From assembly GCF_002854065.1 (NCBI RefSeq), contig NZ_CP024147.1: a stretch of DNA of 64,000 bases. One strand, given 5' to 3'. The notes under the pieces are model-generated. The model was not told the DNA's origin and did no database searches. It was given only the letters and a program-made list of their open reading frames with translations. Both the position numbers and the translations under genes were made by a program. The first letter of the stretch is position 1. Every line of letters begins with the position of its first letter. Source of the DNA: Escherichia coli (GTDB taxonomy: Bacteria; Pseudomonadota; Gammaproteobacteria; Enterobacterales; Enterobacteriaceae). Below, piece by piece: positions 4,063 to 49,562 of the stretch.

Positions 4063-5199
4063 TTAACGTGCCGGATGATGAACGGCGTTAAAACCCAGTT
4101 TACACAGCAATGATGCCGCACTGGCGTCATCACAAATTACATACAGAGATGACCATTCACGGCGCTCAAGATAGTTTTTGCGCAGTTTATCGAACTCACC
4201 CGGTATCCCGGCGACTTTACGCAGCGGTGCGTCATCGCGGCGCACATCATACACCAAATGCACCAGCCTTTTCAGCGTCGGTTGATCGAGCGGGCCATGC
4301 AGCGTAATGCGACCAAACTCTGGCGCGGGTAGTAATGTATCCAGCGCAACGTGCTGTTCATGCCCAATAAACTTGCTATAGGCTTCAAACACTTGCGTAG
4401 TACCGCGTGCTTTACCTTCCAGGGTATAGCCTGCAATATGCGGCGTGCCGATATCCACTTTTGTCAGCAATTCCACATTAAGTTCCGGTTCGCCTTCCCA
4501 GACATCCAGCACTACGCTTAACTTCTGGCCTTCATTCAGGCAGGTCAGCAACGCAGTATTATCGACGACTGCGCCACGGCAGGCGTTAATCAGAATCGCT
4601 CCCGGCTTCAGGCTACGGATCAGTTTTTCATCCGCCAGATGCAGCGTTTTGTACGGCCCGTCTTTGAAGAGTGGCGTATGGAAAGTCAGAATATCCGCGC
4701 GCTGAACTAACTCATCCAGCGAGCGGAAATCACCCTCATCCCCACGGTCGGCGCGAGGCGGATCGCAAAGTAAGGTTTTAATCCCTAACGCATCCAGTCG
4801 TGCCTGTAAACGCCGACCAACGTTACCAACGCCCACGATCCCCACGGTACGCTCGTGCAGTGAAAATCCATCGCGTTCGGCAAGCATCAGCAGGGAGGAG
4901 AAAACATATTCCACCACCGCAATCGCATTACAGCCAGGTGCAGCGGAAAAACCAATTCCCGCCTGCTTTAACCATGCTTCATCGACATGGTCGGTCCCCG
5001 CAGTGGCAGTGCCAACAAATTTAATGGGTTTTCCTGCCAGCAAAGATTCATTCACTTTCGTGACCGAACGCACCATCAGCGCATCCGCGTCTGCCAGTTG
5101 AGCGACGGGGATTGGACGCCCGGGAACCGCGATCACCTCACCCAAACGGCTAAATAAGTCGCGGGCATAAGGCATATTTTCATCAACAAGGATTTTCAC
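4063..5199 (-). CDS. pdxB: Erythronate-4-phosphate dehydrogenase
   Basis: 378-aa [19 protein letters not shown]..., D-2-hydroxyacid dehydrogenase fold (GIVGVGNVG). Confidence 0.95.
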
Positions 5200-5297: not shown

Positions 5298-7471
<2,174 letters not shown>

Positions 7472-7690
7472 TTACTCCAGAATGCAGCGCAAGGCGAGGA
7501 GTATCCCCGTCTCATCTCTCTGGTTTCAGGGTTACGGTGCGTTGGCAGGAATTAACGCGTACGTCTTTTCAGAAGGAAATCGACAAAGCGGGAAGTTTGC
7601 CTGGTACAGGCGGCGATTGTCAATGATGTGAAAAAGGGAACCATCAGGTTCCCTTTGGCGTTAGTGCCGGAGGCCGCATTGGCGCGTAAC

Positions 7691-7742: not shown

Positions 7743-8963
7743 TTAATCTTTCAGCTTGCGCATTACCAGCGTGGCGTTGGTGCCGCCGAAGCCGAAGCTG
7801 TTAGACATAACAGTGGTCAGTTCGCGATCGGTCGTTTCGGTCACGATGTTCAGACCCGCAGCCTGCTCGTCCAGCTCTTCAATGTTGATGCTCGGGGCGA
7901 TAAAGCCGTGTTCCAGCATCAGCAGAGAGTAGATAGCTTCCTGTACGCCAGCAGCGCCCAGAGAGTGACCGGTCATGGCTTTGGTTGCAGAAATCGCCGG
8001 GCTCTTATCGCCGAACACTTCACGGATAGCTGCCAGCTCTTTCACGTCGCCAACCGGAGTCGAAGTACCGTGGGAGTTCAGGTAATCGATTGGGGTATCA
8101 ACGCCATGCATCGCCATCTTCATGCAGCGTACTGCGCCTTCGCCAGACGGAGCAACCATGTCTGCGCCATCAGACGTTGCGCCGTAGCCAACGATTTCAG
8201 CATAGATATGAGCACCACGCGCCAGCGCGTGTTCCAGCTCTTCAACCACCACCATACCGCCGCCGCCAGCGATAACGAAACCGTCACGGTGAGCATCGTA
8301 AGTACGGGAGGCTTTTTCCGGGGTGTCGTTGTATTTAGTAGACAGCGCACCCATTGCGTCGAATTCGCAAGCCATTTCCCAGCACAGCTCTTCGCCGCCG
8401 CCAGCAAACACGATGTCCTGTTTGCCCAGTTGGATCTGCTCTACTGCGTTACCGATACAGTGTGCGGAAGTCGCACACGCGGAGCTGATGGAGTAGTTAA
8501 CGCCATGAATTTTAAACGGGGTGGCGAGGCAGGCAGAAACGCCGGATGCCATCGCTTTGGTGACCACATATGGGCCAACCGCTTTCAGGCCGCGCGGACC
8601 GCGCATTGCGTCAGCGCCGAACACCTGGAAACGCGGGGAGCCGCCGCCGGAACCTGCAATCAGGCCAACGCGCGGATTATTCTGGTAAGCTTCCGGGGAG
8701 AGGCCCGCATCAGCGATTGCCTGCTCCATAGAAAGGAATGCATAAATGGATGCGTCGCTCATAAAGCGCACAACTTTGCGGTCAATGAGGCCAGTGGTAT
8801 CCAGTTTTACGTTGCCCCAGACGTGGCTACGCATGCCGGAATCCTTCAGCTCCTGAGAGAAAGTGATCCCTGAACGTCCTTCACGCAGAGATGCCAGGAC
8901 TTCCTGCTGGTTATTACCGATGCTGGAAACAATGCCCAGGCCAGTAATCACTGCACGTTTCAT
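7743..8963 (-). CDS. fabB: 3-oxoacyl-ACP synthase I (KAS I)
   Basis: 406-aa [25 protein letters not shown]... with the active-site region [12 protein letters not shown]. Confidence 0.97.
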
Positions 8964-18950: not shown

Positions 18951-19703
18951 TCAGCCTTTGCGGCTCTGCTCTACATCCACCTGGCAGGTATCGCCGCCAC
19001 ATTTAAAATACAGCGGCATCCGTGCGCCATAGTCGTTAACGTAGGTCAGCACCGGGACGCTATCCATTTTGACTTTTAACGGCACAGAGGTTTTTGGCGA
19101 TATCACCATGGGGGAAAATCCCGCTGCCGGATTGCCATTTTTTTGTGCACTAGCGTTACTGATAACCACGAAGTACGGCGTCGGGTTATTGACAGTAAAC
19201 TCCTGGCCGCTGCGGGTTAAGGTCACCTTATGCTGCCATGGATTTTTCATGCTGACGTTTTCCAGCGCCTTTGGTCGCCAGAACAGCTTGATGCGCGTTT
19301 GCAGCGCAATCTGTAACGTGTTGGGTTTGTTCGATTTCGGCGGGATCTCACGCACGTTGAAATAGAACACGCTCTCGCGGTCGGCAGGCAGCTTGTTGAT
19401 ATCCGGCATGCCCTGTACCTTCACCTGACCGTTCATCATGGAATCGATGCGCTGCACCGGCGGCAGTACCGTCAGCGGCGAGCTAATCTTGTTACCCTGC
19501 TCGTCTTCCATCCAGCTTTGTGCCAGATACGGCATTTTCGGGTCGTTATTGCGCAGCGTGACGCTGATTGATTTATCACTTTCGTTAAAAGTCAGGCGTG
19601 TACGGTCCGGGGTGACAGAGGCCTGTGCTGACAGGCTGGCGGCAGTTATCAGTAACGCCAGCGTCGTTGCGGCCGTTCTGGCAGAACAAAATAGATTCGT
19701 CAT
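18951..19703 (-). CDS. yfcS: Periplasmic fimbrial chaperone (PapD-like)
   Basis: 250-aa ORF with PapD-family features (signal peptide, RLTFNESDKSISVTLRNN, FYFNVREIPP). Confidence 0.92.
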   Translation of the reverse strand: MTNLFCSARTAATTLALLITAASLSAQASVTPDRTRLTFNESDKSISVTLRNNDPKMPYLAQSWMEDEQGNKISSPLTVLPPVQRIDSMMNGQVKVQGMPDINKLPADRESVFYFNVREIPPKSNKPNTLQIALQTRIKLFWRPKALENVSMKNPWQHKVTLTRSGQEFTVNNPTPYFVVISNASAQKNGNPAAGFSPMVISPKTSVPLKVKMDSVPVLTYVNDYGARMPLYFKCGGDTCQVDVEQSRKG

Positions 19704-34592: not shown

Positions 34593-34667
34593 GTCCTCTT
34601 AGTTAAATGGATATAACGAGCCCCTCCTAAGGGCTAATTGCAGGTTCGATTCCTGCAGGGGACACCA
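34593..34667 (+). tRNA. argW: tRNA-Arg (anticodon CCU)
   Basis: GTCCTCTTAGTTAAATGGATATAACGAGCCCCTCCTAAGGGCTAATTGCAGGTTCGATTCCTGCAGGGGACACCA. Acceptor stem pairs; anticodon loop CT-CCT-AA; T-arm GGTTCGATTCC; encoded CCA. Confidence 0.95.
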
Positions 34668-34842
34668 TGCACACCTCTCCTGAAATCTACCATACCCCAC
34701 AAAAAGCCTTTATAATCAGCACATACCCTTACTTATGTTACTCAAATAGTCGCCTTAATTCTCCTCAGGGGAACGTAAATCAAGTCACATTTGGGGGCCT
34801 ATTTAGGGGCACATCTTGGTCAATCTATTGCGAGGCCCCCAG

Positions 34843-36033
34843 ATGCCACTGACAGCTCGACAAGTTGAAACAGCCAAACCCAAAGATAAAATTTATAAGA
34901 TTGCCGATGGTGGTGGGCTCTACCTTCAGGTCAATCCTAACGGCTCAAAGTACTGGCGAATGAAGTACCACTATGCGGGGAAGGAAAAGAAACTATCATT
35001 TGGCACCTATCCAACTATTACATTGGCTGAAGCTCGCAAACGTCGGGATGAAGCCAAGAAAATACATGCCGATGGTAAAGATCCCGGTGAAGTCAAGAAA
35101 GCTGAAAATCTTGAGAAAAACCTTTCCGAAGGAAGAACTTTTGCCGCAATCGCCACCGAGTGGTACAACGCAAAAGTTTCAGGCTGGTCTGCCAGCTACG
35201 CTGATTATGTCGACAGAGCATTCAAAAATAATGTGTTTCCCTACATTGGAAACAGACCCATTAGTGAAATCGAACCTCTTGAACTTCTCGCAGTTCTTCA
35301 GCGTATCGAAAGCCGAGGAGCCTGCGAGCTAGCTAATAAAGTTCGCCAACGATGTGGTGAAGTGTTTCGGTATGCCATTGTTACAGGTCGGGCACGATAC
35401 AATCCAGCTTCTGATCTGGTTATAGCAATGAAAAGCTATAAGCGAACACATTACCCTTTCCTGCTTCCTCCTGAACTACCAGAGTTTTTATACAAACTCG
35501 AAAACTACACCGGCAGTATTGTAACCCGTGAAGCTACAAAATTGTTGATGCTCACAGGGCTGAGAACAGTAGAATTACGTATGGGGGAATGGTGTGAGAT
35601 CGATTTTACCCAAAAGATATGGGAAGTTCCTCCGACCCGGATGAAAATGAGGAAGGAGCATATCGTCCCTCTGTCAGATCAGGCAATCCAGTCTCTGCAA
35701 ATCCTCAAAGAACTGACTGGAAGATACAGATACATCTTTGCCGGAAGAAATGATGTTAACAGGCCTATCAGCGATGCAAGCGTCAATATGGTTTTGAAGA
35801 AGATTGGCTATGACAAAAAAGCTACCGGGCATGGATTTCGTCATACAATGAGTACTGTTCTACACGAGCAAGGATTCAATAGTGCATGGATTGAAATGCA
35901 ACTTGCACATACGGACAAAAACAGCATTCGTGGTACATACAACCATGCTCGTTACCTTGAAGGAAGACGAGAAATGATGCAATGGTACGCTGACTACCTT
36001 GATGCTCTTCGAAAAGAGTCACCAGCTATATAA
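34843..36033 (+). CDS. P4-type tyrosine integrase of the argW island
   Basis: Track ORF 34816..36033; start taken at MPLTARQVETAKPKDKIYKIADGGGLYLQVNPNGSKYWRMKY (typical P4-integrase N-terminus). C-terminal catalytic residues HGFRHT...LAH...Y. Lies 176 nt after the tRNA. Confidence 0.92.
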   Translation: MPLTARQVETAKPKDKIYKIADGGGLYLQVNPNGSKYWRMKYHYAGKEKKLSFGTYPTITLAEARKRRDEAKKIHADGKDPGEVKKAENLEKNLSEGRTFAAIATEWYNAKVSGWSASYADYVDRAFKNNVFPYIGNRPISEIEPLELLAVLQRIESRGACELANKVRQRCGEVFRYAIVTGRARYNPASDLVIAMKSYKRTHYPFLLPPELPEFLYKLENYTGSIVTREATKLLMLTGLRTVELRMGEWCEIDFTQKIWEVPPTRMKMRKEHIVPLSDQAIQSLQILKELTGRYRYIFAGRNDVNRPISDASVNMVLKKIGYDKKATGHGFRHTMSTVLHEQGFNSAWIEMQLAHTDKNSIRGTYNHARYLEGRREMMQWYADYLDALRKESPAI

Positions 36034-37451: not shown

Positions 37452-38295
37452 CTAAGCGAGATTATGGTTTTCAAATTGTTCCGGGCTGAGACCGCCACAG
37501 GCACTGTGACGACGCCAGCGATTGTAATCACACTCGATATAATTAAACACCGTTGCCCGCATTATTTCCCGGCTGCTAAAGCGTTCCCCGTGGATACATT
37601 CCACCTTCAGCGAATGAAAGAAGCTTTCCACACAGGCATTGTCATAACAGTAGACTTTCGCACTCATACTGCCACGCAGGTTGTGTCGCTTCAGCAGCGC
37701 CTGATAATCCCCTGAACAGTATTGACCACCACGGTCCGTATGAACAATGACGCTTTCCGGGCGTCTTCTCCGCCACAACGCCATTTGTAGTGCATCACAG
37801 GCCAGTTGTGCTGTCATTCGCGGTGACATCGACCAGCCAATGACGGCGCGTGACCACAGGTCGATGACTACTGCGAGATACAACCAGCCCTCATCGGTAC
37901 GCAAGTACGTGATGTCACCCGCCCACTTCTGGTTCGGGCCTCTGGCGCTGAAGTCCTGCTCCAGCAGATTCTCCAATACGGGCAGGCCATGTGCACGGTA
38001 GCTGACCGGGCTGAACTTTCGCCCGCAGCCCCTGACGACGCAGGCTGGCGGCAATGGTTTTAATATTGAACTCCGGCAGTTCGTCAGCAAGGCGGGGAGC
38101 ACCGTATCGCTGCTTTGCCTCAAAGAATGCCTTATGGACAGCGGCATCGCAGGTGAGCCGAAACTGTTGGCGAAGGCTCATCTGGTGACGACGCCTGAGC
38201 CAGACATACCAGCCGCTGCGGGCAACCCGAAGTACACGACACATCGCTTTGATGCAGAACTCTGCCCGATGATTTTCGATGAAGACATACTTCAT
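37452..38295 (-). pseudogene. IS3-like OrfB (DDE integrase-type transposase), frameshifted
   Basis: Track ORFs 37915..38295 ([30 protein letters not shown]...) and 37452..38147 (...[34 protein letters not shown]...HTDRGGQY...) are in different frames. Confidence 0.88.
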
Positions 38296-38767: not shown

Positions 38768-39247
38768 TCACGAAGATAATGATCGTATGGCTTCCTTAAG
38801 GGCTGGTGAGACACGTTGATTAAGTGCTTCATTAGCCCAGTCGGATTGCACGGGTATTCTACGCAATATCACTGTGTTTAAAGCAGCAAACAAACGATGC
38901 AGTAAATGTATAGAACCGGTCGCGATAGCTGTATCCACCCACTGGTCCGCATAGAGCCATGGGGCTGAAAATAAATCAGCCATCGCCTGAGTAGCAACTT
39001 CAATAGACGCTTTTTCTAGGCAAAGAACATCACCCTGATCGCCAAAATTATGCTCAAAGTAAGGCAATCCTTCTATATTCGTGCGAATTAGAGGAAATGG
39101 GCAGCGCCCAATGCTCAGTAAAATATAGGCGTCTATACGCTGATCATCGTCACCCACCTCTGCTGACGGCAGTTTCGCTAGTTGCCCGAGTATCATCCAA
39201 CTGGTTGATTTAGAAATGACCTTTGGGATTTGATCCTCTAAATTCAC
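38768..39247 (-). CDS. Hypothetical 159-aa protein, downstream partner of the nuclease-NTPase gene
   Basis: Track ORF (GTG start) 69 nt after the stop of 39317..40696, same strand. No family recognised. Confidence 0.55.
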   Translation of the reverse strand: MNLEDQIPKVISKSTSWMILGQLAKLPSAEVGDDDQRIDAYILLSIGRCPFPLIRTNIEGLPYFEHNFGDQGDVLCLEKASIEVATQAMADLFSAPWLYADQWVDTAIATGSIHLLHRLFAALNTVILRRIPVQSDWANEALNQRVSPALKEAIRSLSS

Positions 39248-39316: not shown

Positions 39317-41128
39317 TTATTGGTTGTCTGGCATAGCTAAAGTAAACAATCCGTTTTTTATAGGTTCTTTATATGGCTCAATGCTGAGAAGGCCCTGAAT
39401 AATTCCAAAGCTGAAATATCTCTCTTTAGCTGCCATACGGCGTATGGCTTGAGCACCGATCATATCTCCAAGATAAGTGGCGTCTAGCCGTTCGCCAAGC
39501 CAAGCCCCGGCGTCTTGAGGGTCTTGTTCTGCCCGTAAAACCAGTTCATCACAAACAGCATCCGACAGTTCCAGAAGGTAAGCTGCGGGAACTGTCGGCA
39601 CCACAACATCTTCCCATCCTGAAAGGCGAAAAATACGAACTGCCCCCATATGTTTTAACTCATTCACTACACCACGAGCTTCGTCAGAAAGTGCGTCATA
39701 CCGCACGACAAATCCATTCGCTTTAGCAAACATTAATTCTACTGAGTGGGAGTTTGTGTCAGCTAGTGCGCAGCGTGCAAGAACCCGATAATAACGAAGA
39801 AGATCATACTGACTCTCATAGCTCTTTTGCGCAGCATCTATAAGTTCCATACCGGGTGATGGAGGAAGATAGGCGATAAGATCCGTTTTCTGGTATTGAT
39901 GATTGCGCACAATGTCATCATAAATAGTGCGAAGAACCCAAGGCGAGCGGTAGTCATCGGCGTATTCTGCTCCCTGTTGAAAAACTATCCGCTGGTCCGA
40001 GAGAATCTGTTGCGCCAGCTTAAATTCATCTAGGGACATAGGCGATGTTTTAAATACCTTCGACCGGCTACCAATTGCAGACGGAGTTCGTCCGTTTGGA
40101 TTTTTCAGTAACGCGTTGGCATGATAGGTCGTCAGAACAACCACCAGCCTGTTGCCAAAACGTATACCCGCAAGTTCCTCAAGATCAGTAGCCATTTGGG
40201 AGCCTGGTTCAACGTCGTCGATAGCAAGCATAAGCGATGGACCTTCAGTGCAGTTAGACATTCGTCTTAACCAGTTACGTGCATCATTTGAGGTTAAATT
40301 CCATTCAAATTCAGCTGCAAAAAGATTGGCCAGAGCCTGAAATAGTCCTGGTCCGGAACCTCGTAACATCAGGACAGCCAAAAGATCGCTACTTTCCGTT
40401 TTTAGCGAAATTTCACGGAGGCAACTGCTTTTTCCGCTTTGTGCATCACCCTCAATGATAGTGAAAGCTGTACCCATCACAGCAGATTCAATTACAAGAG
40501 ACGTGATTTTGCGAGGAAAAAGTAGGTTGTTGGCAAATGGATGTTCTGAATGCCCAGGCTGATCAGTTATATCAATCAGCAGCCGGGCTGTTTCTTCTCG
40601 CACAGCTGGCACCCAAGCATTAGTTTCTCGCCCCATCAAGGCTTCAATAGCCCAGCGCATGTCAGCCGCCGCCAACTTTGCAGAATTGGCGAGCATCTTG
40701 TTTACCGCTGCCGAGGCATCCTGTCCACCCGACCACTGTTGTCCATTACTTGAGTCATAAACGCGCGTATCTTTACCGTTCGTAACTACAACGAGAGGCG
40801 GACGTGGTGTTAACTGGTTAGCGTAGCTTTAAGCCTGTTCATAATCATCATGGGTCAGTGTCAGGTCTTCACGTTTCAGTTCAATAACCGCAAGTGGTCT
40901 CTCCCGATGAAAGATCAAAACATCCGCTCGCCCGTATTTTTTCCAGTGTGCGGCGCTATCTATTTTGTAAGTTCCATGGCCTAGCCGAACGGTAAAATGG
41001 CGCTGTTCGATAAGATCTTCGCGAGGAATGTTAGGAAATGCTATGTTTAGTGCTGAAGTAAGCCGGCTTTCTAGCTCGGCTTCAGTTCGAACGAGTGGAG
41101 AGCCCGTTTTTGATTGCATACTTTTCAT
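39317..41128 (-). pseudogene. PD-(D/E)xK (HsdR-N/Mrr-like) nuclease domain fused to a STAND/AAA+-like P-loop NTPase, interrupted by one in-frame TAA (40829-40831)
   Basis: Track ORFs 40829..41128 and 39317..40696 are in the same frame. The 44 codons between them are open (SYANQLTPRPPLVVVTNGKDTRVYDSSNGQQWSGGQDASAAVNK). Motifs: D-x12-ELK (GRADVLIFHRERPLAVIELK), Walker A GDAQSGKS (40427-40450), Walker B LMLAIDDVEP. Good RBS (gagga) before the ATG at 41128. Confidence 0.75.
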
Positions 41129-41342
41129 GACAAAGTATCCTCAGATATTAGTCATTGGCTAAGTTTTTATTTCACTTACTACCTTTCCAGATTAATGCGA
41201 AGACGCATAGCATTGGATTAACGGATGTGAAATGGATTATTGACAAGCAAAGTAACTTTTTCCGCATAACTATCAATTGATTAGCTGAAGAAAGGGAATA
41301 TGATTTAGTTCACTCAGGTTTCTCCAGCACGATGTGCAGATG

Positions 41343-41623
41343 CTAAAGCCACGATTAATTCTAAAGCAGATTAATATAACCCTGAAACAGGCAGAGCAGG
41401 AAACGCCTGTATCGGAAGTATGCCGCATGACCGCCCCCGATAACTCACACCGAATGCCAATAGGAATGTCAGCCCCTCGCTCATAGCAGACCTTCGGGCC
41501 TGGCAGCTTAGTGCCAAGAACACTCCCCAGTGGCCTATCGGCAAGTGTAAGCGTACGAATATCGCCTCCGTGCTACACAGTAGACGACTACATTTTCGAC
41601 GCATGAGCAAATCGTGGCTTTAG
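41343..41623. other. GC-rich 281-bp non-coding module bounded by 14-nt perfect inverted repeats (candidate structured RNA or MITE)
   Basis: ctaaagccacgatt (41343-41356) and aatcgtggctttag (41610-41623). Internal hairpins include acaggc-N12-gcctgt, tatcgg-N20-ccgata, gtag-acga-ctac and cagacc-ttcg-ggcctg. Both flanks are AT-rich. Confidence 0.4.
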
Positions 41624-41771
41624 TTGTCTAAAACCAGTGCTTCAACACTTTTTTTTCACCAAACAACGCATCGTAGAAGCACTAGTTGGATTCCACAGGC
41701 TTACGTAAACAAATAGCGCTAACGGCTAAGCTGGTCCATTAGACGCTCAATCATCCTCGCAAGAGGTATAG

Positions 41772-42788
41772 TTACTCGATGCCCAGAACAAATGACATTA
41801 ACAAATCTAGCTTTATTTTCATGTCTGCAGTTGCCGAAGCCGCATTAACCTGCGGCAAGGCAAGCCATCTGTTTACGGCATCGGAGTTGAATCTCTGCTG
41901 CCTTAGGAACGAAGATACCGACGTTTCCCAGGAAAAGATTTCACCCCCACAAAGTTCGACGGGCTGCTGAGAGCAGGCTCGCTGAATAGTCATTCCCAAA
42001 CCGACGTAGCGGAGAAGCTCACGTCGCACATTCTCATCTTTTTGCATGACTGGTGCATCCAGTTTCGGTTTCGGTCCAAAGTACACTCCGGTAGTACCTG
42101 GTTGTAATGTCGGGTCACTGGAAAAATAAACCGGAACTCCCATCAATTTAAATGCCGCTGTCAAAATTTCATAACTAATGTCTGATCGACTCCAACGGCC
42201 CATGTGGGGTGGTACTTTTGGCAAACCGACCAGATCATCGCCACGGCTTACAATCGATACCCCCTCAACTGGCACGGATGGTTGCATTCTGAATACAGCG
42301 TCAGAATCGATTTCCCAGCCAGCTTCGCTTAACAATCGCAAAAAATTACCAGCAGCCACGCACGATGATTCACTCCACTCAACACAACCGATGCGCAGCT
42401 TGTCCCGCTGACCGAACTGTCCTGTTCGAAATAATTCGAGGTATCTGTCGCGATTGGAACTATTAACGGCATATGCATCAATCACAGTAGGCGGTACAGG
42501 TTTACTTGCAGATTCAGGATTTTGTTGAAGCAAATCTGGGCTTATGAAAAACACTATAGCGAAGATCGCCACTGCGCCAGATGCTCTTAACCACCCATTA
42601 AATTTTACTTCAAGGAAACCAGGCAGAACTGCACCAATACATCCGGCAGCCAGAGCCAGAACTATTCGGTAAACTATATATTGATAAGGTGTGGGATTGG
42701 GGGTTGTGATAGTAGTAATGAGTATGGCAACTATCGCCACAACCGCAAAACCATACCTAATGAACTTGTCTGTCCTTACACTGCTCAT
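41772..42788 (-). CDS. Hypothetical membrane protein (three N-terminal TM helices plus ~240-aa soluble domain)
   Basis: 338-aa ORF. Hydrophobic stretches FAVVAIVAILITTITT, IVYRIVLALAAGCIGAVLPGF and ASGAVAIFAIVFFI. No family recognised. Confidence 0.6.
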   Translation of the reverse strand: MSSVRTDKFIRYGFAVVAIVAILITTITTPNPTPYQYIVYRIVLALAAGCIGAVLPGFLEVKFNGWLRASGAVAIFAIVFFISPDLLQQNPESASKPVPPTVIDAYAVNSSNRDRYLELFRTGQFGQRDKLRIGCVEWSESSCVAAGNFLRLLSEAGWEIDSDAVFRMQPSVPVEGVSIVSRGDDLVGLPKVPPHMGRWSRSDISYEILTAAFKLMGVPVYFSSDPTLQPGTTGVYFGPKPKLDAPVMQKDENVRRELLRYVGLGMTIQRACSQQPVELCGGEIFSWETSVSSFLRQQRFNSDAVNRWLALPQVNAASATADMKIKLDLLMSFVLGIE

Positions 42789-43091
42789 TTTAATTTTGAC
42801 ACCTGAATCAAGTCCATAAGTCGAAAATCCCGCATTAAACTGTTCCCCAATGATTAATACAGCTTTATACGCGTAATGAGGCTATTGGCGTTGGTGATGA
42901 GTGTAACTGTCCATTCCTCGCTCAGAGCAACCTTCTGCTCCAAGAGTCAGTCTACAGTGTGCAAAAAACAGACGTTGATCACAATATCGAGTTAATCATT
43001 CGGCCGTTTATCACTCCCATTGAAAAATTTCTCAGTATCCAATATACCAATGTTGAGGGCTTCCCTCTTACATCTCAAAAGGATAACTATC

Positions 43092-43220
43092 ATGGGTCTT
43101 AAACCTGGTCCAAAACCAATTGCTAAATCGACAGGAAAACCAGATCAACGCCGACGAGATAATAAAGATACTCCTGGCAACACTCCGGGACTAAAGCCAA
43201 GTAAGTCCACCGGGAAGTAA
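43092..43220 (+). CDS. Possible 42-aa basic Pro/Lys/Gly-rich peptide with an internal repeat
   Basis: ATG at 43092 preceded by aaggat. Reads MGLKPGPKPIAKSTGKPDQRRRDNKDTPGNTPGLKPSKSTGK; GLKP...KSTGK occurs twice. This is the shorter, ATG-initiated version of track ORF 43020..43220. Confidence 0.3.
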   Translation: MGLKPGPKPIAKSTGKPDQRRRDNKDTPGNTPGLKPSKSTGK

Positions 43221-43256
43221 AAAAATCAGGGTATAAATAAGTTATTTATACCCTGA
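43218..43256 (-). terminator. Intrinsic terminator of the three-gene helicase operon
   Basis: 15-nt perfect inverted repeat tcagggtataaataa/ttatttataccctga, followed on the minus strand by ttttttt. It sits 14 nt after the helicase stop. Confidence 0.85.
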
Positions 43257-43269
43257 CTACATATCCAGT

Positions 43270-45468
43270 CTACTGAAGGTGTTTCTGCAGCCAGGTGCAC
43301 GTTCCTTCTATATCATACGCCTGTGCCCCATACCCTTTAGCAAGCAAAGTCTCTGGTAAATACTCGTCATATTTATCCAGATACTTGTCAGGAACAACTG
43401 CAGCAAGCTCAAACTCTGAAGGTAACCCCGACAATAGCATTTTCTTAAGTACACGCTGGACAGAGGCAACGCCTGAGTCCTCTACCTCTATCACACCTGC
43501 AAATGAACTGGCTTTAAAGCCACAACGTATAAGCAGGGACGTAATTGTATTGACAATTTTATCCCCCATCCACGGGATCACGTAGCAGTTCTGACCACTG
43601 GCAATAAAACAGTCATTGTGTAGATTGTAGCGTTGGAAGTTGTCACTTCCTTCCGCAAAGAGGCTTCTGGCTGCGGCATCAGCATAATCGACTCTCTTGT
43701 TGCCTACCGCGATACGGTAATCATTTTCCCTGTAGATAGCGAGCATCTCCTGGCGAACAACATCATGAACAGACATCCCGCTACCACTGAATAGTGGTGG
43801 CTGACCGCCTTTAGTCGCCTCAACATAGATAACCTTTTTTTCAACCTCGATCTCTGTCACTTTCCAGCGCCGTCCGCCGAAGATGATGTGCTGCTCCGGC
43901 AAAAGTGGGGAGTCTACAGGCACTGTGCCAAGAGTTCGGTTTCCCGTTACAATGCGAAACTCCTCAGGTGTATTGAATACGGCATAAAACGTGTAGTGAT
44001 TAGTCAGCTTCTCCCCCTCAGCCCCGACAACTATTTCACCGCTGGCTAGTTGACTGAGCAGGCCACATGTCCCCATATGTTTAAGCAGACTTTTAAAGTC
44101 ATTTATATCCACATTCCGGAACGGACCTGTCTGGCAAAGTTGTGACCAGAGTTGATCGGCACGAACACCTCCCCATTGCGCAGTAATAGCCAGGATCTGG
44201 TGTAGTAGTGTGGAGTAATGTTTCTGCCGGATATCTGCAGGCTCGAACCAGCGCTTAGAGATCATCAACCTGATCATTGCCATCGCCTGAACCAACTGCA
44301 GCCGTAAATGATCCACAATGCTGCTGGTTGCGGTAAGTTCAGGTTCAGTAATTAACATTCTCAGCACCGATGGGGAATCGCGCCGCCCTGAACGTCCCAT
44401 GCGTTGACGCAGACTGGAAACAGAATGCGGAGGTGTCACTTGTATGACAGACTGCACCTTACCAATATCAATACCCAGCTCCAGCGTCATTGTACAAACA
44501 GCGGTTGTGGGCAAATTCCCTTTCTGCAGTCGGGCTTCAAGCGCCTCACGTAACTCCCTGGCAAGGGAGCCATGATGAGGAAAGAATTCATTAGGAACGA
44601 CATTTGCTTCACACATGTCGCTCAGTATTGCCGCTATGCTTTCAGTACGCTTTCGACTGTTAGCAAAGACCAGGTGGGAATCGCCACGACAGAGCCTGAA
44701 AATATCCGCGCAGACGAGCTGTTCAGCAGAGCTCTGGAGCTCTTCCCCTTTTTCGAGCACCCGCTCAAGATAACCTTTAACCTGAACTTGTAGTGTAGCG
44801 GTGCTATTACTGTCTGTTACCGTTTCACAAGGTAATCTCTTATCCGGACGCAATAATTCTGGCACTTTTTCCAGCTCTCCCAGAGTGGCACTCAACGCGA
44901 CACGGGGAACTGGATTTAACTGGCGTCCCAGCACATGGTCAATTCTATTAAGCAGCGAAAGCAGTTGTATACCACGCTCTGAGCCAATAAAAGCGTGGAA
45001 CTCATCAATAACAATGTATGCCACTGAAGAAAACGCCTGTTTGAGCCAACCCAATGAGTTTATGAGCAAAGACTCAAGTGATTCAGGTGTGATAAGTAAG
45101 ATACCTGACGGGCTTGTCCGTGCTTTATTCTTTTTGCTTTGTGGTACATCCCCGTGCCAGGGCGTCACTTGCATTTCCAGGGCTTCCCCCAGGCTCTCAA
45201 GACGACGGTGCTGATCGTTAATCAATGCCTTCAACGGACTGATATAGATAATGCCAAATCCACCAGTGAGATCTGCAATCGCTGAACAGGCAGGAAGAAA
45301 GAAAGCCTCTGTTTTACCCGCAGCTGTACCTGCACTAATTAGTACATCACGATCACGGGCTAAAATTGCCGGAATAGAGCTCTCCTGCAAGGGCCTTAAT
45401 GATGACCAGCCCTGCTTATAAATCCACTTACGGACACGGGGATCGAGACTATTGTAGGCACTGCTCAT
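43270..45468 (-). CDS. sngC: DEAD/DEAH-box (Lhr-like SF2) helicase, Shango SngC-like
   Basis: 732-aa ORF. Q-motif LRPLQ, motif I AGTAAGKTEA, Ia SPLKALINDQ, II DEFH, III SAT, VI QRMGRSGRR, plus a ~300-aa C-terminal extension. Its ATG overlaps the stop of the upstream ATPase gene (ATGA). Confidence 0.85.
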   Translation of the reverse strand: MSSAYNSLDPRVRKWIYKQGWSSLRPLQESSIPAILARDRDVLISAGTAAGKTEAFFLPACSAIADLTGGFGIIYISPLKALINDQHRRLESLGEALEMQVTPWHGDVPQSKKNKARTSPSGILLITPESLESLLINSLGWLKQAFSSVAYIVIDEFHAFIGSERGIQLLSLLNRIDHVLGRQLNPVPRVALSATLGELEKVPELLRPDKRLPCETVTDSNSTATLQVQVKGYLERVLEKGEELQSSAEQLVCADIFRLCRGDSHLVFANSRKRTESIAAILSDMCEANVVPNEFFPHHGSLARELREALEARLQKGNLPTTAVCTMTLELGIDIGKVQSVIQVTPPHSVSSLRQRMGRSGRRDSPSVLRMLITEPELTATSSIVDHLRLQLVQAMAMIRLMISKRWFEPADIRQKHYSTLLHQILAITAQWGGVRADQLWSQLCQTGPFRNVDINDFKSLLKHMGTCGLLSQLASGEIVVGAEGEKLTNHYTFYAVFNTPEEFRIVTGNRTLGTVPVDSPLLPEQHIIFGGRRWKVTEIEVEKKVIYVEATKGGQPPLFSGSGMSVHDVVRQEMLAIYRENDYRIAVGNKRVDYADAAARSLFAEGSDNFQRYNLHNDCFIASGQNCYVIPWMGDKIVNTITSLLIRCGFKASSFAGVIEVEDSGVASVQRVLKKMLLSGLPSEFELAAVVPDKYLDKYDEYLPETLLAKGYGAQAYDIEGTCTWLQKHLQ

Positions 45469-46781
45469 AGTCTGAAATTCGCCAGGCCATCATCGTCATC
45501 ACTTTCCTCCACAATGGCATCCCCCATATCGCTGGGCTTGTCTTCTTCAATCGCCACCCCCTCAATGAGAGCTTGCCAGTTCATCGTACTGTTTTGTTCC
45601 AGCACAGCCAGCATATCCAGAAAACCTTTTATGGTATTGCGGGGAGTTCGAAAGTAAGCATCTCCGATGGTTTTGCTGCAGTGATGCAGAAACCCGGTCA
45701 GAGCCTCATCTGGCACCAGATAATTTGCGGGATCTCCACCAGCATAAACATGACGAAGATTTTTCAGTAAAATATACAGTTCCTCAGGAGTGAGGCTGGC
45801 AAGATGTAGCGTGGGAGACGAGTAGTCAATCACGCCAGCTTTCTGTGCGAATCGATTTTCTGCCAGACGCGACTGGAGCGCTTCATAGCTGTAGAGCCCC
45901 TTACGTGGATCGAAAAGAAACTCTGGCGTCCCCCCGAGGATAAAACCAATATTTTCGGCGGAGCCTTGCAGGCAGTCATTCAGGATCCGCAAAATTTGTT
46001 CGTAGTTGGCCGTTCTCGCTTGCGTATTATTCAACTTGAAGAGGTTCACCATCTCGTCGAGGCTAACTAAAAGTCCGGCATAGCCTGCCTGACGGACAAA
46101 AAGGCTCATCAACTTCAAAGAGTCATAGAACGAGGCGTCTGAGATAATCGTTCGGACGTCAAGATCATTACGGGCATCAGTTTTTGTGGTGTACTCGCCC
46201 CGCAACCAGCGAATAGCATTGGATTTTAAGGTTTCGTTATCCTGCTCATGCCCGCGCCAGAATGCGTCAATGACCTTCGCAAAGTCATATCCACCCACCA
46301 TATCTGACAAAGCAGCAAGGCGTTTATGAATAACGGATGAGACCTGGGAGCCGTTCGCATCAGCTTCCTTCCTTGCCTCAGTAACAAACCTTTCCACAAC
46401 GCTAAGTAATGCATTGCCATCTGGTTTGTTTCTGGTGGACATATTTTTCATAAGCTCTGAGTAGAGATTACGAGCCTGACCTCCCGATGAGTGAATACGT
46501 CTGTCGGGAGAAAGGTCTGCACTGACCGTGACCAGCTTTTTCTCTAACGCAATAGACCGTACAACACTTAAAAAGAACGTTTTGCCGGAACCATACTCAC
46601 CAATGATAAGTCTGAAGCTTGCCCCGCCATCAGCAATCCGTTCAATATCCTGATGGAGGGCGGTTATCTCATTCACGCGGCCAACCTGGATATGCTGAAT
46701 ACCTATCCTTGGCGTTACTCCCGACTTAAGTGACTGAATAATAGCGTCGCGCTCTTTCACTCTTATACGTGTTACAGACAT
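45465..46781 (-). CDS. sngB: DUF2791/BrxD-like P-loop ATPase, Shango SngB-like
   Basis: 438-aa ORF. Walker A GEYGSGKTF, Walker B GLLVSLDEM, acidic C-terminal tail. Confidence 0.8.
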   Translation of the reverse strand: MSVTRIRVKERDAIIQSLKSGVTPRIGIQHIQVGRVNEITALHQDIERIADGGASFRLIIGEYGSGKTFFLSVVRSIALEKKLVTVSADLSPDRRIHSSGGQARNLYSELMKNMSTRNKPDGNALLSVVERFVTEARKEADANGSQVSSVIHKRLAALSDMVGGYDFAKVIDAFWRGHEQDNETLKSNAIRWLRGEYTTKTDARNDLDVRTIISDASFYDSLKLMSLFVRQAGYAGLLVSLDEMVNLFKLNNTQARTANYEQILRILNDCLQGSAENIGFILGGTPEFLFDPRKGLYSYEALQSRLAENRFAQKAGVIDYSSPTLHLASLTPEELYILLKNLRHVYAGGDPANYLVPDEALTGFLHHCSKTIGDAYFRTPRNTIKGFLDMLAVLEQNSTMNWQALIEGVAIEEDKPSDMGDAIVEESDDDDGLANFRL

Positions 46782-46784
46782 TCA

Positions 46785-49094
46785 CTAACCCTCTAATTCT
46801 TTGGCTATTTCCAGGTCAACCCAAATGTGATCATCAGCATCTTCCAGCACTGGTGCATCAACCACCGCATAGGACCAATCGTTAATCACCTCAAGCGCAC
46901 CGCCGAGCATCAGGTTCCAGTTACTACACAACTCTGTCGCCTCTTTTCTGGACCATTGTTCTTTCTCCAGCAACCTGCGATAAAGTTGGCTATGAGCGGA
47001 GTCAAGCCCCCCTTCCCCGGTTAATGAGGCTGGAGCGCTTTCTGGTTGTTCTGGTTCTTCTTCAGTGAAAATCGAGTTCAGTAATTTACGAACATCATCA
47101 GTGGCAGATTCGTGGCGGGCAAGTACATTGGCATCCAGCGTAAACCCTGCCGTCGACTGATTAGCTGGTACAGATGAAACGAGAGCAGTTTCAGTTACGG
47201 AATGCTGATGGATATTGCTTGATACGGATGAGGGATCCAACCCCAGGCTTGTATAAATCTTCTCAAGCTGTTTGATTTCGGCAGGCGTAATTCTGCCGTC
47301 AGAGCAAGCGACACTAACGATAACCTTACCCACAGCTGATTTTTCCGCTGCACCGAGTAACTCAATCCGGCTTTTCATTCCCGTCATATTCGCCGGGGTA
47401 TGAAGCTGCCACGTTAAATATGCGTGCAGAGAGCGCTTTTCATCATCGCTGAAGCTGACATTGTTGTTGATGGCATTCTCAAGCACTTTCTGTTCGGCTT
47501 GATCGAAAGAATTGTCAATCAAGGCGACTACCGAACCTAATCGGAGCGTCAATACAGCTGTGATAAATTCAGGAGAAGGAGAGAAGCGGCCACTTTCACC
47601 AGCAGGGAATAAAACAAGAACACCATCGACATCTGCTTTTACGTGGTGGTAATAGGGGTCAGGAGCCAGGCAGTACCCCATTTTCTGTGCAAAGGCCTGC
47701 ATCAAGTCGGCCTCTTTTTTGTTGATCTTTGCCGGACAGGTAGCATTCATGTGTGACCAGAAGTCAGCAACTGAAACTACTCCCCCCTTACTGAGGATCG
47801 CGTCATCAGCCCAGCGTTTGAATGCACTTAATATTTTATCTGCGCTTTCGTTAACGATTTCTGAAGGCAGCAACAAAATTGCAACGGTATCATTTGCTGA
47901 AGTGCCTTTTCTACCAAGGTAACGACTGTAAGCATCCAGTTCATCTGTGCATATATCAGCAAGAGTCATAAGCTTCTGAACAGGGCCTTTCAATGCACTT
48001 GGATCAGGCAAGTCAGGAACAGGAAGCCGAATACCTCTCAAACTGGGACTTGCAGGCGTGTAATCTAAACGCAGACGCGCTTTATTCGGCTTCACTACCA
48101 TCCCTTCACCGTATTTAAGGGTGTAACGCCGTTTAAATAGTGCAGCAAATTCTTTCGCACAGCGGCGGGCGGGGGTTCGTAATGAGTATTCAGTATGGTT
48201 TGTCACCCACGTCAGAGCCAGATCCGCTGGAACCGGGGCTCCTGCATCAACTGTCTTTGCCAGGATTAACCTGAACTGCATGCTATTGCTGAACTCTGAA
48301 TCATCGCTGAGAGCTGCTGCAAGATTTTCGTTCGGACGAAGAATGGACATCGCTTCAAGTAACTGGGACGAGTAGTTCCGGAATGATCTGTTTTCATTGA
48401 AAACAGATCTGAGACGGCAGATCTCTTTGAAAAGAGAATAGAACTCATCGTCAGATATATTGCTGTCCCTGCTGTCAACAAGCGCCCGTCTTTCCAGACC
48501 ATACAGATAAATAAAAACGTAACCAATTGGGCAAGAAGTGTCACATCTGTCGCTGGTAAGCCAACTCAGGTACGCGCCACGTGCTTCAGGTGAAAGTGAG
48601 GAATAACTGGGCCAATACCCTAATGAACTATCTTCGTAGATGTAAGATGTGGGGTATATCTTGAGCGTGTCGTCAATTAGCGATGCCTCGCTACTATCAT
48701 CATAATAACCGCCTGAGTTATGCCCGACAGGGTTCATTCGCTGTCCAAGATAGAAGTAGCCGCCGGTAATCTCTACCCCACCGACTGTGATCACCTCCCC
48801 CGGTAAAATCCAGCGAGCCAAAGCACCGGTAGTTTTTGAGAAATTCTGGCGTTGAGTGGCTGTTATACTGTATTCGGCATTCCGCCCGCCACTTAGTGTA
48901 AACGTAGCCAGATTGTCATCTTCGCTGTCCTCGTTGTGCATTACAGACTGATTTTTTTTGTTATTAGCAAGCCATTCTTTAGGTGGTGCTTTCACAGGAG
49001 CGGAAGTATAAGAGCCCGCGGACTTAGTTTTCTTCTTTTTGAAAAAAAGAATATAAATCAAATAAATCGCTACTATAAATATCCATAACTCCAT
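46785..49094 (-). CDS. sngA: Membrane-anchored TerB-domain protein (TerB-N / TerB / TerB-C-like), Shango SngA-like
   Basis: 769-aa ORF. N-terminal TM anchor ELWIFIVAIYLIYILFF followed by KKKK. The C-terminal half has paired TerB-like helices (IDNSFDQAEQKVLENAI...; ACSDGRITPAEIKQLEKIYTSLGL). 3-nt gap to the next gene. Confidence 0.75.
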   Translation of the reverse strand: MELWIFIVAIYLIYILFFKKKKTKSAGSYTSAPVKAPPKEWLANNKKNQSVMHNEDSEDDNLATFTLSGGRNAEYSITATQRQNFSKTTGALARWILPGEVITVGGVEITGGYFYLGQRMNPVGHNSGGYYDDSSEASLIDDTLKIYPTSYIYEDSSLGYWPSYSSLSPEARGAYLSWLTSDRCDTSCPIGYVFIYLYGLERRALVDSRDSNISDDEFYSLFKEICRLRSVFNENRSFRNYSSQLLEAMSILRPNENLAAALSDDSEFSNSMQFRLILAKTVDAGAPVPADLALTWVTNHTEYSLRTPARRCAKEFAALFKRRYTLKYGEGMVVKPNKARLRLDYTPASPSLRGIRLPVPDLPDPSALKGPVQKLMTLADICTDELDAYSRYLGRKGTSANDTVAILLLPSEIVNESADKILSAFKRWADDAILSKGGVVSVADFWSHMNATCPAKINKKEADLMQAFAQKMGYCLAPDPYYHHVKADVDGVLVLFPAGESGRFSPSPEFITAVLTLRLGSVVALIDNSFDQAEQKVLENAINNNVSFSDDEKRSLHAYLTWQLHTPANMTGMKSRIELLGAAEKSAVGKVIVSVACSDGRITPAEIKQLEKIYTSLGLDPSSVSSNIHQHSVTETALVSSVPANQSTAGFTLDANVLARHESATDDVRKLLNSIFTEEEPEQPESAPASLTGEGGLDSAHSQLYRRLLEKEQWSRKEATELCSNWNLMLGGALEVINDWSYAVVDAPVLEDADDHIWVDLEIAKELEG

Positions 49095-49562
49095 GAGGCA
49101 ATAACCTTAAAAATAGCTTTTCACGAACACCGAAAGGATGACGATGGGAAGTGGATTAATCTTAAAATAATACTTCTAAATTACAAAGGTTAAAAGCAAA
49201 TCACAACCTTCCCGAACCTCCGCTTTTCGCTTGCTACGGTCCCTGCCGAGCATGAATCTCGTCTATGCCCAAAAGCGGACATTGATAATTCAGAAACCAT
49301 GGCAGAAGTGTGGTATCAGCCCCTCACCTGATGCCTGCCAGCATCGCACCTCGCTTCATGTCTAACCTCTCTGTTAGCCCGGCAGGGTCAATGGCTCTGT
49401 TGACAATGGTGCTACTTTCCAATACGTTAAGCACAAGGTTAGCGCGACCCGGCAGCTCACGGCCAAAGCGGAATGCAGCGCAGACTTATCAAATCTTTTT
49501 TGGTTAAGTGTCTTTGATTCTTATGATTCGTGAGCACATAGGACAGATAAGAGACTTAAACC

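What the first reader, a model, noticed from the sequence alone, without database searches (positions are those of the whole stretch)
41343..41623. GC-rich 281-bp non-coding module bounded by perfect 14-nt inverted repeats between two defence-island genes
The 640-bp gap between the 338-aa membrane gene and the nuclease-NTPase gene is mostly AT-rich. It contains a compositionally distinct GC-rich core flanked by ctaaagccacgatt / aatcgtggctttag. Several local hairpins lie inside. One of them (41489-41504) pairs better on the minus-strand transcript (caggcc-cgaa-ggtctg with a G-U pair) than on the plus strand, where there is an A-C mismatch. This hints at a minus-strand structured RNA co-oriented with the flanking genes. 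The only ORF here (79 aa) looks like noise. Possibilities are a cis-regulatory or guide-like ncRNA belonging to the neighbouring module, or a MITE-like element.
Basis: seen in the sequence. Interest (0 to 1): 0.55.

Follow-up and report, generated by a model that had tools for sequence, protein, structure and literature searches.

The report
Decayed cassette-junction palindrome, not an ncRNA
The "module" is the seam between two independently acquired gene cassettes, and at its centre sits a worn copy of a widespread, unannotated palindromic repeat that separates accessory and defence genes in many Gammaproteobacteria and is linked to a small 200-aa tyrosine recombinase.

Summary
The sequence facts hold. 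There is a perfect 14-nt inverted repeat (IR) at 41343-56 / 41610-23, a GC-rich centre, and no credible ORF.

The 281 bp is not a unit:
- Salmonella, Pectobacterium and a metagenome keep the right arm and the 3' flank of the 338-aa gene. Homology stops at 41465-41491, and none has the left arm.
- Without the IR stem the interior folds like shuffled sequence.
- The flank evolves about as fast as third codon positions, with no covariation.

The centre (41463-41521) is a degenerate copy of a dispersed imperfect palindrome, AAYGTCCGC-TnnTCGCTCATA-GCGGAC ... GTCCGC-TTTGTGCCAGAA-GCGGACRTT.
- It occurs in 2155/5426 E. coli genomes, in plasmids, prophages and the P2 Z/fun hotspot, and in many Enterobacterales and Alteromonadales-type genera.
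- Copies cluster in co-oriented arrays with one to a few genes between them.
- Inter-species homology breaks at the core.
- One empty/filled pair shows an insertion beside a unit.
- A 200-aa Xer/Fim-like tyrosine recombinase sits in such arrays, always co-oriented with the elements.

The window has at least two copies and probably a third. They make the 338-aa gene and the Shango operon separate cassettes.

Best reading: relic of an integron-like recombination site. No ncRNA is supported, and the 281 bp is not a MITE. I found no prior description.

The parts
41343..41356 (.). Left arm of the perfect 14-nt inverted repeat. It lies on the nuclease-gene side of the junction and has no counterpart in other lineages.
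41610..41623 (.). Right arm of the 14-nt inverted repeat. It is part of the 3' flank that travels with the 338-aa gene (Salmonella identical; Pectobacterium CTACCGCCACGATT).
41425..41462 (+). 'Left-arm' extension of junction element A. ATGACCGCCCCCGATAACTCACACCGAATGCCAATAGG corresponds to the family consensus CTGACCTGCTCCCCGTTGATTCACACAGAATGCTGTTAGC.
   Evidence: alignments
41463..41521 (+). Junction element A, found with the sequence-only covariance model R1 (41.4 bits, E = 5.5e-12). Unit T1 is AATGTCAGC-CCCTCGCTCATA-GCAGAC at 41465-41491. A T2 remnant, GCAGC-TTAGTGCCAAGA, lies at 41503-41519 and has lost its 3' stem.
   Evidence: the copy does not fold better than shuffles
41522..41771 (-). 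Non-coding 3' flank of the 338-aa gene. It is inherited with that gene in E. coli, Salmonella, Pectobacterium and one metagenome contig, and evolves at about the synonymous rate.
41772..42788 (-). 338-aa gene of unknown function: the single gene of the cassette between elements A and B.
42908..42977 (+). Junction element B (T1+T2, degenerate), between the 338-aa gene and sngC. Model R1 gives 24.8 bits, E = 8e-7. It is conserved in the Salmonella locus.
43270..49094 (-). Shango operon sngA-sngB-sngC: the cassette between elements C and B.
   Evidence: PADLOC SngA/B/C
49219..49284 (+). Probable junction element C, very degenerate (9.8 bits, E = 0.04). It is on the same strand, 125 nt upstream of the sngA start.
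39317..41128 (-). Neighbouring segment: truncated HsdR_N nuclease gene (40829-41128, 99 aa) plus a 459-aa partner gene (39317-40696).

Best explanation
The 281-bp 'module' is not one element. It is the seam between two gene cassettes of a tRNA-Arg genomic island.

SHOWN
- Everything to the right of about 41477 (plus-strand coordinates) belongs to the 338-aa-gene cassette. That covers the rest of unit T1, the T2 remnant, the 250-nt 3' flank with the right IR arm, and the gene itself.
- Everything to the left belongs to the neighbouring HsdR_N-nuclease segment.
- The seam is a degenerate copy of a dispersed imperfect palindrome of about 75-100 nt. It is built from two inverted, related units. 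T1 is AAYGTCCGC-TnnTCGCTCATA-GCGGAC. T2 is GTCCGC-TTTGTGCCAGAA-GCGGACRTT.
- This palindrome separates cassettes of accessory and defence genes in chromosomal islands, prophages and plasmids of Gammaproteobacteria.
- The window holds at least two co-oriented copies (A and B) and probably a third (C).

INFERRED
- The palindrome is the recombination site of an integron-like cassette-exchange (or cassette-inversion) system. That system would be served by a 200-aa, catalytic-domain-only Xer/Fim-like tyrosine recombinase ('int200').
- Int200 sits inside or at the head of such arrays in other genomes, and would act in trans where absent.
- Exchange happens mainly inside the invariant TCGCTCATAGC of T1, and in some cases at the 3' edge of T2.
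- The window copies have lost their palindromic pairing, and no int200 gene is in the window. Here they are most likely inactive scars.
- The perfect 14-nt IR is a locus-specific accident of what was joined, or a recent local event. It is not a functional stem.
For: The region is a chimera.
- On the gene strand, E. coli, Salmonella (L046) and Pectobacterium (L048) align from the 338-aa stop codon through about 310 nt. Homology ends abruptly right after ...GCTATGAGCGAGGGGCTGACATT.
- The partner of the right IR arm is absent in L046, L048 and L049.

The centre belongs to a dispersed family.
- A 108-nt consensus hits 2155/5426 E. coli genomes on chromosomes and plasmids, median 1 place, maximum 20.
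- It occurs in P2-like phages at the Z/fun hotspot, flanking the cargo.
- It is non-coding in both candidate frames.
- Neighbouring genes are highly diverse, with no single associated family.

Copies form arrays.
- 45 of 120 loci hold extra copies within 8 kb, against 0.6 expected. Most are co-oriented, with one to three ORFs between them.

The core is a breakpoint.
- Homology end-points between loci pile up at the core.
- 12 segments shared between different species are bounded by cores at both ends.
- In 29 one-sided pairs, variable core positions 6-11 go with the left flank and positions 27 onward go with the right flank.

There is direct evidence of insertion.
- The empty sites L108/L082 compared with the filled site L099 show a 1.85-kb insert directly 3' of a T2-like unit. 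The insert carries its own T1+T2 at its end.

There is a recombinase link.
- Int200 is present in 8 element-ascertained loci, always co-oriented, with a unit on each side.
- It heads arrays in E. coli Nissle and WP8-S17.
- In an independent test, 60 loci were fetched through the protein. 27 carry elements, and all 39 primary hits are on the recombinase strand.

Structure.
- The consensus folds as one long imperfect hairpin, -28.8 kcal/mol as DNA, z = -6.9.
- Pair counts favour this fold (4/500 shuffles reach it) over two separate hairpins (365/500).

Window copies.
- A: 41.4 bits. B: 24.8 bits. C: 9.8 bits. All are on the + strand.
Against: - No recombination has been observed. The recombinase link is association only.
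- Int200 was found in only a minority of element loci, and not in the window.
- Int200 relatives at about 55% identity have no detectable elements nearby.
- ORF orientation relative to the element is only weakly biased (73:56 and 83:44), unlike classical integrons.
- Two different exchange points are seen (T1 core in most cases, T2 edge in some). That does not fit one simple crossover model.
- Breakpoints inside a conserved block would also arise from homologous recombination.
- The covariation signal is modest and comes from related sequences.
- Element C is weak (E = 0.04).
- The 14-nt perfect IR remains statistically unusual (1/2000) and is explained only as an accident.
Confidence: 0.6

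Rival explanations
1. The palindrome is a REP/BIME-like or terminator/insulator-type intergenic element kept for an RNA- or DNA-level housekeeping role. The mosaic junctions would arise only because short conserved blocks serve as 'linkers' for homologous recombination (RecA, or relaxed phage Rad52-type recombinases). No dedicated recombinase would be involved.
For: - The elements lie mostly between gene ends.
- Breakpoints fall inside the longest invariant block, as homologous recombination would also give.
- Many loci have no int200 nearby.
- The elements occur in lambdoid and P2-like prophages, where linker-mediated mosaicism is classically proposed (my own knowledge).
Against: - Only 11-27 nt are identical, which is at or below the usual minimum for efficient RecA recombination (my own knowledge).
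- Homologous recombination does not explain how each new cassette comes to carry its own unit.
- It does not explain the empty/filled insertion next to a unit.
- It does not explain the strict co-orientation with int200.
- No terminator-like sites are predicted in the gap.
- Copy number is low, median 1 per E. coli genome, unlike REP.
Confidence: 0.2
2. T2...cargo...T1 units are non-autonomous cassettes bounded by terminal inverted repeats. A trans-acting enzyme transposes or inverts them, as in a mobile insertion cassette or a Fim-type invertible segment. They would not be integron-like circles.
For: - T2 is a diverged inverted copy of T1 (8/12 loop positions complementary).
- Cargo is flanked by T2 on the left and T1 on the right in P2 (L190), L043 and L045.
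- Near-random gene orientation would follow from inversion.
- Int200 has weak similarity to FimB-type invertases.
Against: - The spacer and T2 co-segregate with the right-hand segment from within T1.
- Arrays have a single composite element between cassettes.
- I did not see target-site duplications in the few ends I inspected (not examined systematically).
Confidence: 0.1
3. One reading: a structured non-coding RNA of about 280 nt, transcribed from the minus strand and closed by the 14-bp stem, serves the neighbouring defence genes as a regulator or guide.
For: - The minus strand folds better than shuffles (-107.8 kcal/mol, z = -3.6).
- The IR is unlikely by chance.
- The right two-thirds are retained next to the 338-aa gene in four lineages.
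Against: - The interior without the IR stem gives z = -1.0.
- The left arm is absent elsewhere.
- Flank identity is at or below third-codon-position identity.
- The covariation term is -0.06.
- There are no Rfam hits.
- No promoter-like site is found on the minus strand, and no terminator-like site at all.
- The 338-aa gene occurs without this flank in Paraburkholderia and Caballeronia.
Confidence: 0.07
4. The 281-bp segment bounded by the 14-nt IR is itself a MITE.
For: Terminal inverted repeats and MITE-like size.
Against: - Exactly one copy in each of 235 E. coli genomes, always at the same locus.
- No other copy in plasmids, phages, IMG/VR or metagenomes apart from this locus.
- The two halves have different evolutionary histories.
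Confidence: 0.03

Closest known systems
Integron attC sites and gene-cassette arrays
   Same: - Imperfect-palindrome sites of about 60-100 nt separate single-gene or few-gene cassettes in co-oriented arrays.
- Cassettes are shared between species and bounded by the sites.
- A tyrosine recombinase gene lies at or in the array.
- Cargo is typical of cassettes (GNAT, glyoxalase, LysE, PIN, defence genes).
- The consensus folds as one long hairpin with conserved mismatches.
   Different: - The sequence is strongly conserved, whereas attC conserves structure only.
- The ends do not fit RYYYAAC/GTTRRRY.
- The main exchange point lies in the 5' unit, not at the 3' GTT.
- The recombinase is 200 aa, co-oriented, and itself flanked by sites. 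It is not a roughly 320-aa IntI transcribed divergently.
- ORF orientation is almost unbiased.
- Hosts are Enterobacterales prophages and islands.
pdif / Xer-site modules of Acinetobacter plasmids, and IMEX elements
   Same: - Short conserved recombination sites of about 30 bp, with inverted arms around an asymmetric centre, flank modules carrying accessory or TA genes in either orientation.
- The recombinase need not be adjacent.
   Different: - The sequence is unrelated to dif/cer/psi as I remember them.
- Sites flanking a cassette here are mostly direct, not alternating.
- A second, inverted unit (T2) accompanies the core.
- A dedicated small recombinase is associated.
REP/BIME, ERIC and other enterobacterial intergenic palindromes; MITEs
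   Same: Dispersed, intergenic, palindromic, unannotated, and often at the 3' ends of genes.
   Different: - Low copy number (median 1 per E. coli genome).
- Confined to mobile or variable DNA.
- Conserved across orders.
- Coincides with homology breakpoints.
- Associated with a tyrosine recombinase, not a RAYT.
- The 281-bp region itself is single-copy.
Retron msr-msd non-coding RNA
   Same: A non-coding region of about 250 nt closed by inverted repeats in a defence island.
   Different: No reverse transcriptase among the eight neighbouring ORFs scanned (39317-49094, plus 37452-38147 and 38768-39247) by Pfam or PADLOC. The IR is not conserved.

Membership tests
Dispersed T1/T2 junction palindrome (family defined here) | Core AATGTCNGNNNNTCGCTCATAGC followed by GRAC; match to the family sequence model | tested here: met
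   Exact match at 41465-41487. Model R1 gives 41.4 bits, E = 5.5e-12 at 41463-41521.
Dispersed T1/T2 junction palindrome (family defined here) | Further co-oriented copies nearby, with genes in between | tested here: met
   B at 42908-42977 (E = 8e-7) and probably C at 49219-49284 (E = 0.04), all on the + strand.
Dispersed T1/T2 junction palindrome (family defined here) | Homology to other genomes breaks at the core | tested here: met
   The E. coli, Salmonella and Pectobacterium alignment ends right after the core.
Dispersed T1/T2 junction palindrome (family defined here) | Long imperfect hairpin (a-d and b-c pairing) | tested here: not met
   The consensus folds at -28.8 kcal/mol, z = -6.9. 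Window copies A and B give z = +0.4 and +0.85, and the 3' stem of T2 is lost in A. These are degenerate copies.
Integron attC site | R''/R' boxes RYYYAAC ... GTTRRRY at the ends | tested here: not met
   Family ends are TGTTAGCAAY-GTCCGC ... GCGGAC-RTTGCTAACA. The consensus boxes are from my own knowledge.
Integron attC site | Adjacent IntI-type integrase (about 320 aa, integron-specific insertion) | tested here: not met
   The associated recombinase is 200 aa. It scores 19.6 bits against the integron-integrase model, whose cut-off is 265.
Integron attC site | Arrays of cassettes each ending in a site | tested here: met
MITE (for the 281-bp unit) | Many dispersed copies of the whole unit in one genome | tested here: not met
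   One place per genome in 235 genomes.
Retron ncRNA | Adjacent reverse transcriptase | tested here: not met
   No RVT or retron hit among the eight neighbouring ORFs scanned.
Any Rfam RNA family | Covariance-model match | tested here: not met
   Nothing relevant at E <= 10 in 40600-42400. Nothing at E <= 1 for well-formed copies in L142.
REP/BIME | High copy number on the chromosome; RAYT association | tested here: not met
   Median 1 place per E. coli genome. Neighbouring genes show no IS200-like family in the top lists.
Xer (dif/pdif) site | Binding and cleavage by XerC/XerD | not testable with these tools
   The 11-8-11 architecture is compatible, but the sequence does not resemble dif/cer as I remember them.

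The most novel reading that the evidence does not exclude
T1/T2 palindromes together with the 200-aa tyrosine recombinase form a previously unrecognised integron-like cassette capture, exchange or inversion system of Gammaproteobacteria. It would operate in prophages (including the P2 Z/fun hotspot), plasmids and tRNA-linked islands. It would be one of the ways whole defence systems such as Shango are moved between islands.
Probability: 0.4. Interest if true: 0.85.

Novelty: new variant of a known kind. Interest (0 to 1): 0.6.

Why it matters
If the inference holds, three things follow.
- There would be a concrete, sequence-searchable marker for cassette boundaries in enterobacterial defence islands, prophage hotspots and plasmids.
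- There would be a candidate enzyme for the so far unexplained modular turnover of defence genes at such hotspots.
- Guilt-by-association prediction would get sharper, because each inter-element interval is one functional unit. Here that means the 338-aa gene alone, Shango alone, and the HsdR_N + 459-aa pair.

For the window itself the practical message is negative. There is no evidence for a regulatory or guide RNA, so the locus should not be annotated as one.

Tried and rejected
- Rfam at permissive thresholds: only chance-level hits.
- Coding test of the conserved core. The minus-frame 'MSEERTLL...' ORFs are 3-69 aa with no ribosome-binding site. The plus frame '...MSAPRS*' is open for only 6-60 codons. 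The core is not coding.
- Retron idea: no reverse transcriptase.
- Search for a constant neighbouring gene: none. Neighbours are diverse accessory genes.
- Homologous 3' flanks in large collections. A 25-base pattern gave 0 hits in genome contigs. It gave only E. coli-identical copies in metagenomes. A shorter pattern gave only chance hits in IMG/VR.
- Upstream regions of nuclease homologues (L186, L187): not alignable to the left part of the gap.
- Test of whether flanking IRs are a structural family feature: they are not.
- Literature searches by sequence words, protein accessions and key words: no description found. The prophage sRNA svsR (PMC12803456) is a different, C0293-like RNA at the 3' end of cI.
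- Resemblances recalled from memory but not tested, so not used: the f1 origin hairpin, lambda boxA (CGCTCTTA), the ERIC consensus, the R388 nic site, and the Tn3 inverted repeat.
- One script failed on a MAFFT temporary-directory problem. One pairwise-identity script had a poor control. The flank identities quoted come from the MAFFT alignment instead.

Full report
**Observation**

The window is E. coli. The 643-bp gap 41129-41771 lies between a 99-aa ORF (40829-41128, minus strand) and a 338-aa ORF (41772-42788, minus strand).
- The 14-nt inverted repeat is perfect at 41343-41356 and 41610-41623.
- GC rises to 0.57 in the centre.
- A perfect IR of this length occurs in 1 of 2000 shuffles of the gap.
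- The 79-aa ORF has no family hit.

On the minus strand upstream lie SngA, SngB and SngC (Shango; PADLOC E-values 1e-103 to 1e-277). The island starts at tRNA-Arg(CCT) 34593-34667, next to an ORF I take to be the island integrase (34816-36033; not scanned, but the O26 record annotates a tyrosine recombinase between torI and this region).

**The 281 bp is not a unit**

The whole gap is present once, at 99% identity or more, in 235 of 5426 complete E. coli genomes. It is unannotated. So it is not a multicopy MITE.

Homologues of the 338-aa protein form a small family (27 clusters). I fetched their contigs.
- On the gene strand, E. coli, Salmonella and Pectobacterium (and, over a shorter stretch, metagenome contig L049) align from the stop codon through about 310 nt.
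- This stretch includes the right IR arm.
- Homology ends abruptly right after GCTATGAGCGAGGGGCTGACATT, which is plus-strand 41465-41487.
- None of these lineages has a sequence complementary to the right arm.
- Paraburkholderia and Caballeronia homologues lack the flank altogether.

**No sign of a constrained RNA**

- Flank identity is 0.86, 0.66 and 0.62 for E. coli against Salmonella, Pectobacterium and L049. Third-codon-position identity in the adjacent gene is 0.92, 0.77 and 0.70.
- RNAalifold gives a covariation term of -0.06.
- The minus-strand fold is good only because of the IR stem: z = -3.6 with the arms and -1.0 without.
- Rfam gives nothing.

**What sits in the centre**

A distant BLAST against plasmids picked up a block of about 70 nt in Pantoea, Serratia and Klebsiella plasmids, in unrelated contexts. 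The pattern AATGTCNGNNNNTCGCTCATAGC then found:
- 37 IMG/VR contigs;
The genera include Pantoea, Erwinia, Serratia, Yersinia, Enterobacter, Citrobacter, Raoultella, Rheinheimera, Pseudoalteromonas, Arsukibacterium, Paraglaciecola and Thalassotalea.

A 108-nt consensus hits 2155/5426 E. coli genomes, on chromosomes and plasmids, with median 1 and maximum 20 places per genome.

The universal part is a hairpin unit, T1: AAYGTCCGC-TnnTCGCTCATA-GCGGAC.
- It is often followed after 16-20 nt by T2, a diverged inverted copy: GTCCGC-TTTGTGCCAGAA-GCGGACRTT.
- Solitary T2 units also exist.
- The core is not coding.
- The consensus folds as a single long imperfect hairpin, -28.8 kcal/mol as DNA, z = -6.9.
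- Pair counts favour that fold (covariation score reached by 4/500 shuffles) over two independent hairpins (365/500). The evidence is modest.

**Behaviour of the family**

1. Clustering. 45 of 120 loci have further copies within 8 kb, against 0.6 expected. Most are co-oriented and 0.5-5 kb apart, with one to three ORFs between them. Ca. Pantoea deserta L142 has three consecutive ORF-plus-element units.
2. No constant neighbour. Neighbouring genes include GNAT, MFS, LysR, hydrolases, PIN, UmuDC, glyoxalase and others.
3. Breakpoints.
   - All-against-all BLAST end-points pile up at the core.
   - Twelve segments shared between different species are bounded by cores at both ends. One example is 2.8 kb at 85% identity between Pantoea L082 and Leclercia L108.
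   - In 17 pairs sharing only the left flank and 12 sharing only the right flank, variable core positions 6-11 follow the left flank and positions 27 onward follow the right flank. The exchange point therefore lies in or next to the invariant TCGCTCATAGC.
   - A minority of pairs switch after T2 instead.
4. An empty/filled pair. L108 and L082 have a lone T2-like unit. Yersinia L099 has 1.85 kb inserted directly 3' of ...GGACGT, and the insert ends in its own T1+T2.
5. In P2-like phages the cargo of the Z/fun hotspot, between tail-fibre assembly and gpFI, is flanked by T2 and by left arm + T1.

**A recombinase**

The gene next to the empty site encodes a 200-aa tyrosine recombinase ('int200').
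- It is catalytic-domain-only and weakly similar to XerA/XerC and FimB-type invertases. It is below every curated cut-off.
- It occurs in 8 of the element-ascertained loci at 87% identity across genera. It is always co-oriented, with a T1 45-65 nt upstream and a T2-like unit about 20 nt after the stop.
- It occurs in 885/5426 E. coli genomes.
- In Nissle 1917 and strain WP8-S17 it is followed by arrays of co-oriented elements between single genes.
- As an independent test I fetched 60 IMG/VR loci through the protein alone. 27 contain elements. All 39 primary model hits are on the recombinase strand. The 7 minus-strand hits are palindromic echoes at the same coordinates.
- Relatives at about 55% identity have no detectable elements.
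- The window has no int200.

**Back to the window**

The sequence-only model finds three copies, all on the + strand:
- A at 41463-41521 (41.4 bits);
- B at 42908-42977 (24.8 bits; also present in Salmonella);
- probably C at 49219-49284 (9.8 bits, E = 0.04), 125 nt upstream of sngA.

The 338-aa gene is therefore one cassette (A to B) and the Shango operon another (B to C). The truncated HsdR_N nuclease with its 459-aa partner lies beyond A. That is a two-gene module also seen next to an island integrase in L186 and next to a small recombinase in L187.

Copies A and B no longer fold as palindromes (z = +0.4 and +0.85), so they look like inactive scars. The 14-nt IR joins one arm from each cassette and is best treated as a local accident, although it stays statistically odd.

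**Comparison with known systems, and novelty**

Functionally this looks most like integron attC arrays or Xer-site (pdif) modules. It fails the defining tests for attC (end boxes, IntI), REP, MITE, retron and any Rfam family (see the membership table). I found no description in the searchable literature. That library is incomplete, so prior description cannot be excluded.

**Verdict**

- The ncRNA interpretation is not supported.
- The region is a decayed cassette junction belonging to an apparently undescribed, recombinase-associated family of junction palindromes.
- That it is a junction relic is well supported.
- That the family is a recombination site for int200 is an inference, at about 50%.

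Noticed in passing
L082:1426-2028; L191:7001-7603 (E. coli Nissle 1917); L043:6090-6692: A 200-aa catalytic-domain-only tyrosine recombinase, annotated 'site-specific integrase'. It is about 87% identical across Pantoea, Yersinia, Leclercia, Buttiauxella and E. coli, and occurs in 885/5426 E. coli genomes. It sits inside co-oriented arrays of the junction palindrome.
   Followed up: partly
L190 (NC_070905.1, P2-like phage) 2436-2472 and 4001-4070: The cargo of the classical P2 Z/fun hotspot, between tail-fibre assembly and gpFI, is flanked by a T2 unit on one side and left arm + T1 on the other.
   Followed up: partly
window 41772-42788 (minus strand): The 338-aa protein has no Pfam or PADLOC hit and a small family. 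Only the C-terminal ~240 aa are shared with 288-aa homologues, and the N-terminus is swapped. It recurs in defence contexts: after Shango, and next to AbiJ-, SIR2- or AAA_15-type genes and P4-type integrases.
   Followed up: partly
window 39317-41128 (minus strand); L186:3292-5657; L187:4001-6477: An HsdR_N-domain nuclease (~306-316 aa) and an unannotated ~476-529-aa partner form a recurrent overlapping two-gene module, a candidate defence system. In the window the nuclease is cut to 99 aa. In O26:H11 11368 an IS3 element interrupts it.
   Followed up: partly
window 43270-49094 (minus strand): A complete Shango system (SngA 769 aa with TerB domains, SngB, SngC). It is syntenic with the 338-aa gene in Salmonella (L046).
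   Followed up: no
L006, L022, L028 (IMG/VR): A junction element lies about 130 nt upstream of a sequence ending in the tmRNA 3' end (GGTTCAACTCCCGCCAGCTCCACCA). That places it at the border of an ssrA-integrated element.
   Followed up: no
L009, L013, L027: The element lies 9-15 nt after the stop codon of a lambda-P-type replication gene, at the start of the mosaic nin-like region of lambdoid prophages.
   Followed up: no
window 19498-19536 (+): A weak T2-like match (10.7 bits, E = 0.02) inside a long ORF. Probably chance.
   Followed up: no
L046 (Salmonella) ~7310, 7444-7483, 8549-8629: Downstream of the 338-aa gene, Salmonella has two tandem element copies and then another after an AbiGi gene. 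Every gene there is separated by an element.
   Followed up: partly
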